The translations under genes were made by a program, and so were the position numbers. This document shows, one piece after another, positions 8,624 through 61,232 of a stretch of 64,000 bases of DNA. The first letter of the stretch is position 1. Each line of letters starts with the position of its first letter. A model generated the notes under the pieces. That model was not told the origin of the DNA. It saw only the letters and a list, made by a program, of their open reading frames with translations, and ran no database searches. The DNA comes from a virus. The stretch spans positions 17,008 through 81,007 of the IMG/VR virus record IMGVR_UViG_3300020125_000051; one strand, 5' to 3'.

Positions 8624-9069
8624 TGGCTAGAATACAGAAAGAAGATGCGCAAGGGTGGGTAGAGTCAACTAAGTTGCCTCTATCCTCCCTTGACATTGCC
8701 TTATTAACTCAAATCGAAGGCGAAGTATTAGCAAGATTAGCCACAGCTTATGATACATCAACTTGGCTTGATCAAACTTCTACTCCGCTGGTTGTTCGAG
8801 TCATTATTGCAAAAACATATGTGGCTTGGATTTACGATAGACAGTATAGTGAGAACCAAACTGGTGGAAATGATTACGCAGCTATGTTGCGTACAAATGC
8901 TGAAATGTTAATAGTTGGCTTAGTTAATGGTACAATTGATATTCCAGGTGTTAATCCAACAGGTTCTATTCCAAGCTTCTATCCAAATGATGCATCTTCT
9001 GCACAAGATCCGACACCAGATGATACATCATTAGGACCTGCTGCATTCTCTATGGGAAAAGTATTCTGA
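8623..9069 (+). CDS. Head-tail adaptor
   Basis: Size, helical pattern and synteny. Confidence 0.7.
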   Translation: MARIQKEDAQGWVESTKLPLSSLDIALLTQIEGEVLARLATAYDTSTWLDQTSTPLVVRVIIAKTYVAWIYDRQYSENQTGGNDYAAMLRTNAEMLIVGLVNGTIDIPGVNPTGSIPSFYPNDASSAQDPTPDDTSLGPAAFSMGKVF

Positions 9070-49563: not shown

Positions 49564-49564
49564 G

Positions 49565-49635
49565 CTCCACCACCAGGATTCGAACCTAGATCAACCGATT
49601 AACAGTCGGTCGCACTGCCCTTGTGCTATGGTGGA
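49565..49635 (-). tRNA. tRNA-Asn(GTT)
   Basis: Cloverleaf; loop CTGTTAA. Confidence 0.92.
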
Positions 49636-53230: not shown

Positions 53231-54820
53231 TTAGATTCTACCTGCGCTAAACGCAGAAACCAATTTAGGCAAGTTTGAATCTGCGCCCGCTACGTCTAGC
53301 ATACCACTATCTGTGGGATTTGCAATAGAAAATCGCGTTGGAGTACATGCAACAACAATCAACTTTGCGTCATGACCTATAAACCTGCGATAATCCTTCA
53401 ATGCAACATGAGGATGTACATTACCAGCCCATGTTTCACTATCAGTCATTACCACAAAGGTATCAACGTCGATGCCACGTTCCTTGGCATATACCATTGG
53501 CAGTGAACAATCTGTACTACCAAAATTGCGATCCTTAGTTCTTTGCATTACTTCAGCTAGTGACATATTAGGTGCTATTCCCAAATCAACAAAATTCTGG
53601 GAGAATCCCATGATTTGGTAGAATGGCTCAGTTCTGGCAATCGTCATTGACATAGCTGCGCAAACTTCGGCAGCAGTTAAGTCAATGCCAGCCATCGACT
53701 GAGACATAGAACCAGAAACATCAAGAGCTATCATGGTACGCTTGTTAGCTGGTTCTACGTACTTAAAGGCACGATAGAAACCATCATCAAGTGCATTTAC
53801 GATAACAGGATTAGTTGCCCAATTCTTTTCATAGGTGTGACTCCATGCGTACTTACGATCACGCTGACCACGCTGATGCACAGTAGATGCTAGCAAATAC
53901 TGGAAAGGATGCAAGCGCGTACGCTGAATCATTTCCTCATCTACAAGCTTATCTGCATATGCACGAGCAAAGTGCATGTCCTCGAAAGCACCAATACGAG
54001 CAAGTCTAGTGATATTACGTACTAGAGCCTGACCGTTAAGCTGTCCATTACCGAAAAGCATCTTCCATACATCAGGAACCTTTAGGAATTGAGTAGGAAT
54101 GGCTTCCCAGGGAAGATTTGGATAACGCTCTAGTGCTGAAAGCACATGTCCTATCATGGTAGATGCTTGCATCCGCTTGAATCCAGCAATTATCAGCGGA
54201 TCTACATTAACTTCATTATCAAAGCCATGCACGAAATCGCCAATTGCCTTATTCAATCCCACAGGATGTGAAAGCATGAGCAAACCCTTGTGGGTCCAGC
54301 CGTTCCGTTGACGGTACTTTACCACCTGATACGCAAGGCTGTCAACATCCTTGCTAATGTACCAATCGGCAATCGCGCGCCGCTTTGCTCGTCCCCAACC
54401 ACCTAGAAGTTTGATATATTCAGCAAACTCGAATAGATGAGTTGACGTGCGACACACCTTAGCTAAGTCCTGCGAAGATTTTGCCTTGCCAAAGGTAAAC
54501 AGCGCGGCCAAACAAAAAATTGCAGGACTATTGCGGAAAGCACGGCCAGACTGTGAGATTTCAACTACAGTATCACGAACTAACTGCTCATCACGCTCAA
54601 TTAGTTCGCGTAGAAAGTTGATGTTATCCTTAGTAAGCTTCTGCTCGTCAACATAGTATGTTCCACCTTCGGTACCCAAAATAAGAAAACGCTCTAGGCG
54701 AGTCTTATCTGTTACCTCAAACGTAAAACCACCAGCATTGTTAGCAACCTGCCGAGGATCTTCTTGCTCTGACTGTGGTATTGGTGTTCCTAGTGTTCTT
54801 GAAAATACGTTGTTTGCCAT
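53231..54820 (-). CDS. rsr: Ro60/Rsr RNA-binding protein (TROVE + vWA)
   Basis: QV.NNAGGF.F, RL.RFLILG.EGGTYY, GGWGR..RRAI..WY, KYRQR.GW.H..L...SHP, AL.RN, DVSGSM MIDAS, TDCSLPM and TDSETW.G..HP motifs. Confidence 0.96.
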   Translation of the reverse strand: MANNVFSRTLGTPIPQSEQEDPRQVANNAGGFTFEVTDKTRLERFLILGTEGGTYYVDEQKLTKDNINFLRELIERDEQLVRDTVVEISQSGRAFRNSPAIFCLAALFTFGKAKSSQDLAKVCRTSTHLFEFAEYIKLLGGWGRAKRRAIADWYISKDVDSLAYQVVKYRQRNGWTHKGLLMLSHPVGLNKAIGDFVHGFDNEVNVDPLIIAGFKRMQASTMIGHVLSALERYPNLPWEAIPTQFLKVPDVWKMLFGNGQLNGQALVRNITRLARIGAFEDMHFARAYADKLVDEEMIQRTRLHPFQYLLASTVHQRGQRDRKYAWSHTYEKNWATNPVIVNALDDGFYRAFKYVEPANKRTMIALDVSGSMSQSMAGIDLTAAEVCAAMSMTIARTEPFYQIMGFSQNFVDLGIAPNMSLAEVMQRTKDRNFGSTDCSLPMVYAKERGIDVDTFVVMTDSETWAGNVHPHVALKDYRRFIGHDAKLIVVACTPTRFSIANPTDSGMLDVAGADSNLPKLVSAFSAGRI

Positions 54821-55030: not shown

Positions 55031-55161
55031 GTTGGATATAGTTTGATAATCGGGGTTTTTGATAGCTCTTGGGCTCCGAATCGAACGGAGACCTTATACT
55101 TTTCAAGTATATATGCTACCTTTTACACTACCCTAGATAACCGACTATCGATCGACCCAAC
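55031..55161 (-). ncRNA. Y-RNA-like Y1: Ro-type stem carrying a complete tRNA-Phe-like cloverleaf
   Basis: GTTGGGTCGA..GTCGGTTATC...CCGATTATC..TATATCCAAC. Confidence 0.8.
55066..55137 (-). tRNA. tRNA-Phe(GAA)-like cloverleaf embedded in Y1
   Basis: TCTAGGG/CCCAAGA acceptor with one mismatch, TATAC-TTGAAAA-GTATA, CTCCG-TTCGATT-CGGAG. Confidence 0.7.
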
Positions 55162-55170
55162 AAAAATCTA

Positions 55171-56397
55171 TTAACCTTCTGCCATGATCTGATTATCTAT
55201 GTTTGCACCAGATGAATCTAGCACATTTCCAGAAATTGATAATCCGCCGCAGCCATCAGTGTGCTTAGCTGGAAAACCAGTACCAGGGAAAATAGGTCCA
55301 AATCTGTTGTTTAACAACGAACCGCGGTTCTGAGCACAGTAAACTGTGTACGAACCACCAACAAGTAAGTTGTTAGTAATTGTTAAGTTAGACTGAATTC
55401 CATGCCCAAAGTTTGGATCATTTGGGGGTCCAGAAGTAAATGTAGCATTGTCATCAGTCATTAAAACTGTGTTATGAATATACTGAATGTTGCTTTCGGA
55501 AGCAGAGCGCGCTGGCCAAACCTGAATACCATCAGTATGTGGATCTGGCGCTACACTATCACCCTTGAACATTCCATGTATATAAGAATCACGAATCGTG
55601 AAAACTGAGTTTGCGTCGCCACCGTTTTCGCAATTGCTAATATCGGCGCCAGTTACAAACAAAAATTCATCACCAAAAGCAGTACCACCATGCATACTAG
55701 GACCACAGAAAACAGACACATGATCCATAGTAGTTACGCCGCCACTATCGGCTGCACCAGCGGTTTCTACAACATAACCTGGAACATTGCAATTAACTGC
55801 AACATTCCTAAATGTTACATTTTGAGCTGTAATTACAGGACATCCAACAATAGTAACGTCATGAATTACTGCACCAGCAGTACCAAAGGTTAATGAGCCA
55901 CTATATGCTGGTAGACTTCCATGCGCGCCTGCCGTTGTGGCATCAGGGAAACCACAGGAACCAGGATTAGCCGCGCAATTGTTACCAGAAGGTGGTGGAC
56001 TCGTAGTAGTCGGAGGTGGAGTTGTCGTTGGTGGTGGATTAGTGGTAGTAGGTGGTGGAGTAGTAGTAGGTGGAACAGTCACCGTTGGTGATGGTGACGG
56101 AGAACCTGTTACTGTAGAACTAGGTGTTGGTGTTGGTGTTGCGGTTAGTCCTGCAATAACCTTTTGCTTGATTATAATACATTGTTGTGCTCTTGTCCGC
56201 TCAGCGGATGTAGTTGCAAATTGTAGGTCTAACTGACATTGTCTTAATAATCGTTGTGCATCGGTTAAATCTGAACTAGCATCCGCTGACGCTCGTTCAT
56301 TATTTGTAAAGATAACTAATGCACCAGTAATTAATGCCATAACTGCAAACCAAATTGCAATTTTCTGCCTTGTTGAACTTATGTGCGTTTCGAGCAT
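55171..56397 (-). CDS. Secreted protein: signal peptide, P/T linker, parallel beta-helix-like domain
   Basis: Hydrophobic N-terminus ending ASA; PPTTT repeats; PDATTAG, I.DSYIH, HTDGIQ and NN.L.GG.Y motifs. Confidence 0.75.
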   Translation of the reverse strand: MLETHISSTRQKIAIWFAVMALITGALVIFTNNERASADASSDLTDAQRLLRQCQLDLQFATTSAERTRAQQCIIIKQKVIAGLTATPTPTPSSTVTGSPSPSPTVTVPPTTTPPPTTTNPPPTTTPPPTTTSPPPSGNNCAANPGSCGFPDATTAGAHGSLPAYSGSLTFGTAGAVIHDVTIVGCPVITAQNVTFRNVAVNCNVPGYVVETAGAADSGGVTTMDHVSVFCGPSMHGGTAFGDEFLFVTGADISNCENGGDANSVFTIRDSYIHGMFKGDSVAPDPHTDGIQVWPARSASESNIQYIHNTVLMTDDNATFTSGPPNDPNFGHGIQSNLTITNNLLVGGSYTVYCAQNRGSLLNNRFGPIFPGTGFPAKHTDGCGGLSISGNVLDSSGANIDNQIMAEG

Positions 56398-57590: not shown

Positions 57591-57764
57591 TTATATCCTA
57601 TCTCTTTGCGAAAACAGACAGGATGAGCTAGTTAGAGTTTAAAGTCTGTTTTCGCCCCTGTTTGAATATTAAATTGTATTTTAGATGCATGTTAGCTTTG
57701 TTTCACCACCCTTTTAGAGGCAAGTATACGGATCTCCCGTATCACCATACGCTAACATGCAACG

Positions 57765-57836
57765 TGCCAAGAGCAGGACTCGAACCTGCGCATCATGTTC
57801 TTCAGACATGCGCTCTGCCAACTGAGCTATCGAGGC
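57765..57836 (-). tRNA. tRNA-Phe(GAA)
   Basis: Loop CTGAAGA; two acceptor-stem mismatches. Confidence 0.82.
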
Positions 57837-60290: not shown

Positions 60291-60421
60291 ATGTTGGATA
60301 TAACTTGTGATCGGCGTTTTGTTCTACTTCCCAATTCTGGGTTGGGCGTGCTAAATTACACTAAACTCAACAGTTTCCTGTTTTCTTGGGTTAGATAACC
60401 AATCAACTTTCGACCCAACAT
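60291..60421 (-). ncRNA. Y-RNA-like Y4: tRNA-like domain opened at the T loop
   Basis: Ro-type stem, GAAA-capped acceptor, D arm, and CCCAA-CCCAGAA-TTGGG arm. Confidence 0.75.
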
Positions 60422-60727
60422 GTAAAACATAATCCGCACCAGTGCAACATACGTTGGACGATGCGGAAGATTGATTGCCCTTCCAATCATAGCGTCTAGA
60501 ACGCTTATGGTTCCAAGCCTGTGATCTTCCCCAATATGATTGGAAGGGCATTTGCAGCACACGGGACAATGGTACCATTGTAAGGCGCCCGGTGCAACAG
60601 CAATAAAACCATGGTAGTGATGGGCTGACCTAATTTCACCACACTTATAGTTCGTCACGAAGATTATTGAACTATAAGACTACAGCCAGTACCGACCATC
60701 GATAGCACCACACCATGGAGCTAGTGC

Positions 60728-60837
60728 TATGGATATATTAGCGAATATCGGGTTTAACTAGGCGCCGAGCCATCGATGGAGTCGAACCATCTTTCGTCTG
60801 ATTAACAGTCAGATAACCAATATTCTTTCGACCCATA
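60728..60837 (-). ncRNA. Y-RNA-like Y5: tRNA-Asn-like domain opened at the D loop
   Basis: Ro-type stem, TCTGA-CTGTTAA-TCAGA, and GATGG-TTCGACT-CCATC. Confidence 0.78.
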
Positions 60838-60840
60838 ACG

Positions 60841-60911
60841 CGCGAACTGTAGGATTCGAACCCACAATAACCGCTTTGGAGACGGTTGTGTTACCATTAC
60901 ACTAAGTTCAC
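60841..60911 (-). tRNA. tRNA-Trp(CCA)
   Basis: Loop CTCCAAA. Confidence 0.9.
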
Positions 60912-61020
60912 TAGAGCAGTGGATATCTGTGATGCACTCACCACTGCGTTGTGCAATGACATACGGCCGTATGCCAACCCGCTAACCATACTTGTTGAGC
61001 TTTCGGTTAGTTCGGTCCAG

Positions 61021-61098: not shown

Positions 61099-61232
61099 GT
61101 TTGGATATAAGTTGAAATCGGTGTTTTTATATGCGCTCTGCCACTGAGCTAATATACGGAATTTCACCGTACGATACAGGAGTCGAACCTGTGACCTCAT
61201 ATTCCTGATAACCAATTTCTGTCGACCCAAAC
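61099..61232 (-). ncRNA. yrlA: YrlA-type Y RNA (Y6): tRNA-like domain opened at the anticodon loop
   Basis: Ro-type stem, then T arm ACAGG-TTCGACT-CCTGT, loop-closed acceptor, and D arm TAGCTCAGTGGCAGAGC. Confidence 0.88.

What the first reader, a model, noticed from the sequence alone, without database searches (positions are those of the whole stretch)
60728..60837. Y5: tRNA-Asn mimic permuted at the D loop
After GGTTA comes a perfect Asn anticodon arm (TCTGA-CTGTTAA-TCAGA), a variable loop, a perfect T arm, a short closed acceptor-like hairpin (GGC-TCGGC-GCC) and TAGTTAAA resembling the start of a D arm. The Ro-type stem takes the place of the D arm. The anticodon loop is identical to that of the real tRNA-Asn at 49565.
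Basis: partly seen in the sequence, partly recalled or inferred. Interest (0 to 1): 0.75.

Follow-up and report, generated by a model that had tools for sequence, protein, structure and literature searches.

The report
Minimal tRNA-like phage Y RNA
This 110-base stretch is a real, conserved small RNA gene: one of the Y RNAs expected to partner the phage's Ro60 protein, a stripped-down relative of the known tRNA-like YrlA RNAs, and not a dedicated mimic of asparagine tRNA.

Summary
The described sequence features are all present on the minus strand at 60727-60838. They fold as described. Relatives keep the stems through compensatory changes (95.6% of cells paired against about 50% in slid controls).

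The element is one of at least seven Y-RNA-like genes upstream of a Ro60 gene, in an 81-kb soil phage with 29 tRNA genes.

Its relatives in Streptomyces phages and soil viral contigs are YrlA-type Y RNAs. Their order is Ro-docking stem, anticodon-like hairpin (the 'V' stem-loop of Chen et al. 2014), T arm, closed acceptor stem, D arm.

In the window's copy and about ten relatives, a 16-base segment with a 2-3 bp hairpin replaces the acceptor stem and D arm. Its loop always keeps GG.

A covariance model aligns GUUAAAC to the strand that follows the D arm, not to a D-arm start.

The anticodon-like triplet is not conserved: GUU, GUC, GUG, GUA and AUG in near relatives, many others further out. 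The 7-base anticodon-like loop shape recurs in all relatives found.

Verdict: a new variant of a known kind. No expression data were found. This scan has noted phage Ro60 with tRNA-like Y RNAs before on other DNA.

The parts
60727..60838 (-). Whole Y RNA gene ('Y5'), about 110-112 nt
   Evidence: MFE fold. Model R1 matches relatives end to end, positions 1-112. Covariation.
60831..60837 (-). Lower stem, 5' strand (UAUGGGU); pairs with 60728-60734
   Evidence: 7 pairs, 5 of them with changes on both sides, 94-96% of cells paired.
60825..60832 (-). GUCGAAAG, the GNCGAAN(0-1)G motif that Chen et al. 2014 assign to Ro60/Rsr recognition
   Evidence: Read in the sequence. Motif defined in PMC4201824. 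Present in all seven copies extracted.
60817..60825 (-). Upper stem, 5' strand (GAAUAUUGG); pairs with 60743-60751
   Evidence: 9 pairs, 7 with changes on both sides, on the model-fitted alignment. Not recovered on the MAFFT alignment, where the 3' strand is out of register.
60812..60818 (-). Invariant GGUUAUC at the top of the stem
   Evidence: Seven minus-strand copies between 55 and 62 kb, one per Y-like element. Invariant in alignments A4, A6 and A8.
60797..60813 (-). Anticodon-like hairpin (UCUGA CUGUUAA UCAGA); triplet GUU at 60804-60806; equals the 'V' stem-loop of YrlA
   Evidence: 98-99% of cells paired; the two inner pairs covary. The triplet varies among relatives.
60792..60796 (-). 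5-base linker CGAAA in the place of the tRNA variable loop
   Evidence: CGAAA (CUGAAA, CCGAAA) in six of the eight nearest short forms, shorter in two. Long forms have RGGUC, AGUUC and similar, mostly ending in a pyrimidine.
60775..60791 (-). T arm (GAUGG UUCGACU CCAUC) with a canonical T loop
   Evidence: 96-100% of cells paired, 3 pairs with changes on both sides. Partial Rfam tRNA match at 60775-60826, 21.2 bits.
60761..60771 (-). Small hairpin GGC UCGGC GCC after a 3-base linker (60772-60774); stands in place of acceptor stem plus D arm
   Evidence: In the MFE fold. GG in the loop in all short forms seen. No covariation; not predicted by RNAalifold.
60752..60760 (-). UAGUUAAAC junction strand
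   Evidence: Model R2 aligns GUUAAAC to the post-D-arm consensus guuAAAC.
60743..60751 (-). Upper stem, 3' strand (CCGAUAUUC)
60728..60734 (-). Lower stem, 3' strand (AUCCAUA), inside the conserved UAUAUCC block
60840..60911 (-). tRNA-Trp(CCA) ending 2-3 bases before the Y RNA; its 3' processing probably makes the Y RNA's 5' end (inferred)
   Evidence: ARAGORN and Rfam. StarPlatinum has the same layout, with a tRNA-Asp directly upstream.
53231..54820 (-). Ro60/Rsr ortholog (529 aa), the presumed protein partner, on the same strand 5.9 kb downstream
   Evidence: Pfam vWA_Ro60 5e-59 and TROVE 1.7e-33.

Best explanation
Y5 is a Y RNA of the YrlA lineage.

**Docking (inferred).** The bulged two-part stem carries GUCGAAAG on its 5' strand and UAUAUCC on its 3' strand. 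It docks on the phage's Ro60 ring.

**Head (inferred).** The tRNA-derived head serves as a handle that brings a tRNA-binding factor to Ro60, or controls access to it.

**Architecture (shown by comparison).** The head is a reduced form of the family's design. It keeps the closed anticodon-like hairpin and the T arm. The closed acceptor stem and the D arm are replaced by a 16-base segment whose small hairpin keeps a GG. This GG may stand in for D-loop G18-G19 against the T loop (inferred, about even odds).

**Triplet.** The GUU triplet is one state of a drifting or switching position, not a conserved Asn identity.

**Expression (inferred).** The RNA is probably made as part of the long minus-strand tRNA/Y-RNA transcript. 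It would be released by tRNA end-processing at the adjoining tRNA-Trp.

Binding, processing and function are all inferred, from established knowledge of Ro60-Y RNA particles (Chen et al. 2014; Wang et al. 2018).
For: - A Ro60 gene lies on the same strand.
- Seven paralogous elements share the Ro-recognition motif, GGUUAUC and the 3' UAUAUCC block.
- One paralog (61099-61232) is a canonical T-acceptor-D YrlA: weak Rfam YrlA match of 24.6 bits and 29.8 bits to model R2.
- Full-length relatives occur in Streptomyces phages next to annotated Ro-like genes, and in soil viral contigs.
- All five further contigs with short forms that I tested encode Ro60 at 45-56% identity.
- The lower stem, upper stem, hairpin and T arm covary.
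- The known YrlA of phage ET08 has the same order of parts, including a 7-base-loop hairpin before an AGGUC linker. Chen et al. describe this fourth 'V' stem-loop.
- Acceptor-stem loss with a retained D arm happened independently in L003 (against L002) and in L040.
- In most short forms the linker has lost the terminal pyrimidine that pairs with the D loop in YrlA.
- Short forms sit beside canonical YrlA copies in the same phages, so they are specialised paralogs.
Against: - There are no expression, end-mapping or binding data.
- Single-sequence fold energy is unremarkable.
- Rfam's YrlA model gives no match at E<=10.
- A defining YrlA feature, the D stem-loop, is absent.
- The small hairpin has no covariation.
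- The gene lies 5.9 kb from Ro60, beyond the 4 kb within which Chen et al. found nearly all their best matches.
- Most alignments were fitted to a model built from this sequence, or collected with patterns that fixed parts of the motif.
Confidence: 0.75

Rival explanations
1. Y5 is a purpose-built tRNA-Asn anticodon mimic, a tRNA circularly permuted at the D loop. Its exposed GUU loop is the functional site: a decoy or cleavage target for an anticodon nuclease, or a substrate for t6A37 or other anticodon-loop enzymes. Ro60 rides on the former D arm.
For: - The hairpin has the geometry of an anticodon arm, and its loop is identical to that of the resident tRNA-Asn.
- In this copy the four helices are ordered as D, anticodon, T and acceptor would be.
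- In the relatives found without fixing the loop letters (Streptomyces phage genomes and Ro60-anchored contigs), the loop positions flanking the triplet are kept in all copies that carry this hairpin.
- Several near relatives keep G at the first and U at the second triplet position while the third varies.
Against: - The triplet is not conserved. Only three of the six nearest short forms have GUU, and a search that left the triplet free found 20 different loops.
- Relatives show that the ancestral design also has a D arm.
- GUUAAAC aligns to the post-D strand.
- There is no free acceptor end, so no charging.
- Identity with tRNA-Asn stops at 11 bases.
Confidence: 0.13
2. Y5 is a decaying YrlA paralog. 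A deletion removed the acceptor stem and D arm, and the remnant is no longer functional.
For: - A defining module is missing.
- The phage has a canonical YrlA as well as six other Y-like copies, so redundancy would allow decay.
Against: - The same reduced architecture is kept in about ten distinct sequences from phages whose Ro60 proteins are only 45-56% identical.
- All remaining helices show compensatory changes, and the junction motifs are intact.
Confidence: 0.07
3. The element is not a Ro60 ligand. It is a structured spacer or processing signal of the tRNA operon, for example a guide for maturation of tRNA-Trp.
For: - It abuts a tRNA 3' end here and in StarPlatinum.
- No promoter or terminator of its own was found.
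Against: - It carries the Ro-recognition motif and the stem shared by all Y copies.
- The upstream tRNA differs between phages (Trp here, Asp in StarPlatinum).
- It co-occurs with Ro60 in every contig tested.
Confidence: 0.05

Closest known systems
YrlA (Y RNA-like A; Rfam RF02553; Chen et al. 2014, PMC4201824; structure in Wang et al. 2018, bioRxiv 10.1101/312249)
   Same: - GNCGAAN(0-1)G motif near the 5' end.
- Encoded upstream of Ro60/Rsr on the same strand.
- Canonical T arm.
- A stem-loop before the T arm ('V').
- Conserved UA in GGUUAUC.
- tRNA-derived head on a Ro-docking stem.
- Occurs in actinobacteriophages.
   Different: - No D stem-loop and no clear acceptor-like stem. A 16-base segment with a tiny GG-loop hairpin takes their place.
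- The linker before the T arm has lost the pyrimidine that contacts the D loop.
- No match to the Rfam model.
YrlA of Mycobacterium phage ET08, and the long forms in Streptomyces phages Faust, Jada, Phredrick and Blueeyedbeauty
   Same: Same order of parts up to the T arm, including a closed hairpin with a 7-base loop followed by a 5-base linker. Same stem motifs.
   Different: They go on with a 7-8 bp closed acceptor stem, U8-N9 and a full D arm with a GG loop. Y5 does not.
Deinococcus radiodurans Yrn1
   Same: A Ro60-bound Y RNA with a T arm and, as modelled by Chen et al., a potential 5-bp 'anticodon arm' and no full D arm.
   Different: - Different order of parts relative to the 5' end.
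- 6-base loop.
- Both strands of the Ro-binding helix are conserved.
- No sequence relation was shown here.
tRNA mimics with a reduced D region (tmRNA tRNA-like domain) and D-armless mitochondrial tRNAs (from general knowledge, not tested here)
   Same: A T arm is kept while the D arm is reduced to a short element.
   Different: Those have a free, chargeable acceptor end. Y5 has none and carries a Ro-docking stem.
Circularly permuted tRNA genes of some algae and an archaeon (mentioned in Wang et al. 2018)
   Same: tRNA parts are encoded in rotated order.
   Different: Those are processed into normal, functional tRNAs. Y5 lacks a D arm and an acceptor stem and cannot be.

Membership tests
YrlA-type Y RNA (Chen et al. 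2014) | GNCGAAN(0-1)G motif near the 5' end | tested here: met
   GUCGAAAG at 60825-60832. Definition.
YrlA-type Y RNA (Chen et al. 2014) | Encoded near a Ro60/Rsr ortholog on the same strand (nearly all within 4 kb in the paper) | tested here: inconclusive
   Same strand and upstream, but 5.9 kb away. The interval holds tRNAs, other Y copies and a few ORFs.
YrlA-type Y RNA (Chen et al. 2014) | Conserved T stem-loop with a tRNA-like T loop | tested here: met
   GAUGG UUCGACU CCAUC; covaries.
YrlA-type Y RNA (Chen et al. 2014) | Conserved D stem-loop after the acceptor-like stem | tested here: not met
   Model R2 of the T-acceptor-D module skips 37 model positions against 16 bases here. No 3-4 bp stem with a 7-11-base loop is present.
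YrlA-type Y RNA (Chen et al. 2014) | [quoted passage not shown] | tested here: inconclusive
   Only a 3-bp hairpin without covariation. It may be a D-loop remnant instead.
YrlA-type Y RNA (Chen et al. 2014) | Less-conserved 'V' stem-loop upstream of the T arm (many members) | tested here: met
   60797-60813. Same position as in ET08 YrlA.
YrlA-type Y RNA (Chen et al. 2014) | Score at or above the Rfam RF02553 gathering threshold (69 bits) | tested here: not met
   No match at E<=10. The published ET08 YrlA also scores only 37.4 bits, so this threshold does not decide for phage members.
YrlA-type Y RNA (Chen et al. 2014) | Bound by Ro60/Rsr in vivo | not testable with these tools
   No RNA run was listed for this phage. 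It needs a pull-down.
tRNA (Rfam RF00005 / ARAGORN) | Full cloverleaf with an open acceptor stem, above the gathering score of 29 bits | tested here: not met
   Partial match only: 21.2 bits, model positions 9-63. ARAGORN makes no call here.
   GUU, GUC, GUG, GUA and AUG in near relatives; 20 different loops in the wider family.

The most novel reading that the evidence does not exclude
The closed anticodon stem-loop displayed on a Ro60-bound Y RNA is read by an anticodon-recognising factor, such as a host anticodon nuclease or an anticodon-loop modification enzyme. In this reading, phages carry sets of Y RNAs whose triplets switch (GUU, GUC, GUG, GUA and others) to match the tRNAs under attack. 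Y5 would be a Ro60-tethered decoy or sensor for GUN-type tRNAs, stripped to the anticodon arm and T arm.
Probability: 0.1. Interest if true: 0.8.

Novelty: new variant of a known kind. Interest (0 to 1): 0.45.

Why it matters
The effector-binding head of YrlA RNAs is a tRNA look-alike whose partner is still unknown. Wang et al. 2018 proposed that the partner recognises the T/D 'elbow'.

This phage lineage offers natural deletion variants. They keep the T arm, an anticodon-like hairpin and a GG-bearing mini-hairpin, but drop the acceptor stem and the canonical D arm. They sit beside canonical copies in the same genomes.

That narrows which parts of the tRNA mimic are under selection. It also gives small, testable RNAs in cultivable Streptomyces phages.

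It further suggests that the 'V' stem-loop of many YrlAs is a retained anticodon arm. That fits the dimeric-tRNA origin model and would place the family's break point between the D and anticodon arms.

Practically, such elements cause tRNA mis-annotations in phage genomes.

Tried and rejected
- **Rfam, gathering and E<=10.** No family for this element except a sub-threshold partial tRNA match.
- **Queuosine / colicin-E5 idea.** I considered that a conserved U33-G34-U35 marks mimicry of GUN tRNAs. My first pattern fixed CUGUNAA, so it was circular. A pattern with a free triplet found GCU, GCA, GCG, UGA, UUG, UUA, GGA and others. Rejected as a family rule.
- **Recent derivation from the resident tRNA-Asn.** Only an 11-base shared run.
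- **Expression.** No RNA holder listed.
- **Population variants.** Contigs of four soil DNA runs laid on 60600-60950. One run gave no cover and three gave partial cover with no differences, so no information.
- **Own promoter or terminator.** None convincing. The only 'terminator' hit is the T arm read on the plus strand.
- **Neighbouring genes as candidate effectors.** HNH endonucleases, an NlpC/P60 protein, DUF5052, and a 408-aa protein that looks like a beta-helix protein. No RNA-repair or tRNA enzyme in the interval.
- **Model R2 to decide whether the small hairpin is acceptor or D.** It leaves the 16 bases unaligned.
- **MAFFT plus RNAalifold.** It misses the upper stem because the 3' strand is out of register, and it does not predict the small hairpin.
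- **Burroughs and Aravind 2016.** Not held under the id I tried. The Thermus phage Ro60 paper has nothing on tRNA-like Y RNAs.

Full report
**Observation**

Directly after tRNA-Trp (60840-60911) come, in order:
- a 7-bp lower stem;
- an internal loop whose 5' side reads GUCGAAAG;
- a 9-bp upper stem ending in GGUUAUC;
- a hairpin UCUGA-CUGUUAA-UCAGA;
- a linker CGAAA;
- a T arm GAUGG-UUCGACU-CCAUC;
- three bases, then a small hairpin GGC-UCGGC-GCC;
- UAGUUAAAC, then the returning strands of both stems.

RNAfold's minimum-energy structure is exactly this four-way junction. The energy alone is not unusual (z = -1.1). The 7-base loop is identical to that of the resident tRNA-Asn (49564-49635). 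Identity extends over only 11 bases, and the stem is in fact identical to that of tRNA-Gly. ARAGORN does not call a tRNA here. Rfam gives only a partial tRNA match of 21.2 bits.

**Context**

The window belongs to an 81,007-bp viral record with direct terminal repeats. The record is held by many soil metagenomes.

The ORF at 53231-54820 (minus strand) is a Ro60/Rsr ortholog: vWA_Ro60 5e-59, TROVE 1.7e-33. Its best public relatives are the 'Ro-like RNA binding proteins' of Streptomyces phages at 50-57% identity. In all, 356 phage records carry a relative.

Upstream of it, on the same strand and interleaved with 29 tRNA genes, I found seven elements. They share a 5' GGGUC(G/A)A...GGUUAUC and a 3' CCGAU...UAUAUCC. 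GUCGAAAG fits GNCGAAN(0-1)G, the motif that Chen et al. 2014 tie to Rsr recognition.

One copy (61099-61232) is a canonical YrlA with a T arm, closed acceptor stem and D arm. It gives a weak Rfam YrlA match (24.6 bits) and 29.8 bits to my model R2. The finding is therefore one member of a Y RNA gene set.

**Relatives and structure**

BLAST found the element plus its upstream tRNA in 27 BE-cluster Streptomyces phage records. It lies a few hundred bases from their Ro gene and is unannotated.

A covariance model built from the window sequence alone (R1) then found full-length matches. They lie in Ro-anchored viral contigs, in Streptomyces phages Faust, Jada, Phredrick and Blueeyedbeauty, and in soil contigs collected with sequence patterns.

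On the 18 distinct sequences of alignment A4:
- 95.6% of cells form standard pairs, against 34-51% when partners are slid by 1-3 columns;
- 19 of 29 pairs show changes on both sides;
- no shuffle of 500 reaches the observed values.

That alignment is fitted to the model. As a check, a MAFFT alignment of the 11 short forms gives 93.8% against 31-53% for the lower stem, hairpin and T arm. RNAalifold recovers those three helices unaided. The small hairpin has no covariation and is not predicted.

**What the relatives show about the architecture**

The long relatives (about 130 nt) read as follows:
- stem;
- a hairpin with a 7-base loop;
- a 5-base linker;
- T arm;
- a 7-8 bp stem closed by a short loop;
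- U8-N9;
- a complete D arm (for example GUGU-AAUUGGCA-ACAC);
- a run such as GAAAAAC;
- the returning stem.

The published YrlA of Mycobacterium phage ET08 has the same order. It includes a hairpin with a 7-base loop (AUUGAAA) followed by AGGUC and the T arm. This is the four-stem-loop layout (V, T, AS, D) that Chen et al. describe.

- it has a 5-bp stem and a 7-base loop;
- in the copies found without fixing the loop letters, U sits at loop position 2 and A at positions 6-7;
- it is followed by a variable-loop-like 5-mer (AGGUC, GGGUC) exactly where, in the window's canonical copy, the 3' strand of the anticodon stem (AUAUG) is followed by AGGUC and the T arm.

This also fits the dimeric-tRNA origin model quoted by Wang et al.. 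In this reading the family's break point lies between the D arm and the anticodon arm, not in the D loop.

**The short forms**

The window's copy has about ten distinct relatives of the same reduced build. They are L026, L028, L029, L013, the BE-cluster phage copies, L046 and L041, with L040 and L064 as further variants. All are 108-115 nt and lack the acceptor stem and the canonical D arm.

I built a model of the T-acceptor-D module from 19 long forms (R2). It aligns Y5's T arm, skips 37 model positions against 16 bases, and then aligns GUUAAACCCGAUAU to the consensus that follows the D arm. So 'TAGTTAAA' is better read as the conserved junction strand than as a D-arm start.

What the 16 bases are remains open. 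Four observations favour a D-loop remnant or surrogate over an acceptor remnant:
1. Every short form has GG in that loop: UCGGC, UCGGU, UUGGU, UGGU, UUUGGAU, UUUGGC, UGGAU, AAACAUGGACAA, AAGGCAC, GUGGU. The acceptor-closing loops of long forms are unrelated to one another: CUCU, UUCG, GAAA, ACUCAU and others.
2. MAFFT aligns this GG with the D-loop GG of Jada and Faust.
3. L003 (against its near-twin L002) and L040 are clear cases of acceptor-stem loss with a retained D arm, joined to the T arm by three bases as here.
4. Six of the eight nearest short forms share a CGAAA-type linker that has lost the terminal pyrimidine. In YrlA that pyrimidine contacts the D loop.

These are suggestive, not decisive.

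The short forms are under selection rather than decaying:
- their helices show compensatory changes;
- all five contigs I tested encode Ro60 at 45-56% identity;
- canonical YrlA copies sit beside them in the same phages.

**The anticodon**

That test is met.

| Group | Sequences | Triplet |
|---|---|---|
| Nearest short forms | window, L026, L029 | GUU |
| Nearest short forms | L028, L013 | GUC |
| Nearest short forms | BE-cluster phages | AUG |
| Long forms | Faust, Jada, Phredrick, Blueeyedbeauty | GUG |
| Long forms | L002, L003, L006 | GUC |
| Long forms | L032, L033 | GUA |

The table draws.

I briefly entertained a conserved U-G-U as a queuosine or colicin-E5-type signature, but my first pattern had fixed those letters. 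A pattern that left the triplet free returned 55 distinct sequences with 20 different loops. The loop's shape recurs in every relative found. The triplet is not conserved. Whether its changes are drift or adaptive switching cannot be told here.

**Mechanism**

Shown:
- a conserved, covarying RNA structure;
- it carries the Rsr-recognition motif;
- it co-occurs with Ro60;
- it is paralogous to a canonical YrlA.

Inferred from established work on Ro60-Y RNA particles:
- the stem docks on Ro60;
- the head recruits or excludes another factor;
- the RNA is cut out of the tRNA transcript by tRNA end-processing. It starts 2-3 bases after tRNA-Trp, as its StarPlatinum orthologue starts just after a tRNA-Asp.

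No candidate effector gene lies nearby.

**Comparison and novelty**

Phage-encoded Ro60 with YrlA RNAs is known (Chen et al. 2014 list 22 phages). I found three things not described in the papers I could search:
- the reduced class without the acceptor stem and D arm;
- its conserved GG mini-hairpin;
- the reading of 'V' as a retained anticodon arm.

The exact motif is nearly confined to viral contigs: 44 loci there against 2 metagenome-assembled contigs among 185,579 prokaryote genomes.

Earlier notes of this scan record phage Ro60 with variously wired tRNA-like Y RNAs on other DNA. I class Y5 as a new variant of a known kind, of moderate interest.

Noticed in passing
L012:8907-9048 (Streptomyces phage Blueeyedbeauty, MH536814): The record's 'tRNA-His(gtg)' (locus 8911-8983) lies inside a YrlA-type Y RNA. 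It uses the Y stem's 5' strand, the anticodon-like hairpin and the T arm, so it is probably a mis-annotation.
   Followed up: partly
window 55031-55161 (-): ARAGORN's tRNA-Phe (55065-55137) is nested inside another Y-type stem with the same GGGUCGA...GGUUAUC and UAUAUCC strands. A second tRNA-Phe lies at 57764-57836.
   Followed up: partly
window 60291-60421 (-): This Y copy has a D-arm-like run (GUGUAAUUUAGCAC) in which the usual D-loop GG is UU, and it has no T arm. It is the mirror image of Y5, which keeps the T loop and a GG but has no D arm.
   Followed up: no
L003:9215-9331 versus L002:9262-9395: These are two nearly identical viral contigs. One has lost just the closed acceptor stem of its YrlA, joining the T arm to the D arm. 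It is a natural deletion variant.
   Followed up: partly
L072:2060-2405 (Mycobacterium phage ET08): Three Y-like RNAs lie in a row just upstream of the Ro gene (about 2060-2132, 2158-2300 and 2336-2405). Only the middle one is tRNA-like.
   Followed up: partly
window 60644-60725 (-): Two hairpins follow Y5: a 7-bp AUAGCAC/GUGCUAU stem, and a perfect 10-bp CUUAUAGUUC/GAACUAUAAG stem at 60644-60678. Neither has a U tail. Their function is unknown.
   Followed up: no
window 55171-56397 (-): The 408-aa ORF beside Ro60 has no Pfam or PHROG match. Its Atlas neighbours are right-handed beta-helix proteins of Actinomycetota, which hints at an actinobacterial host and a tail or depolymerase role.
   Followed up: partly
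L011:7532-7687 (Streptomyces phage Faust): A sub-threshold match to the manA RNA family (46.3 bits; gathering score 55.2) lies inside the tRNA/Y-RNA region.
   Followed up: no
Viral contigs versus genome contigs: The pattern GGTTATCT, then a hairpin with a 7-base loop, then a T loop occurs in 44 viral loci. It occurs in only 2 contigs (both from metagenome-assembled genomes) of 185,579 prokaryote genomes.
   Followed up: partly
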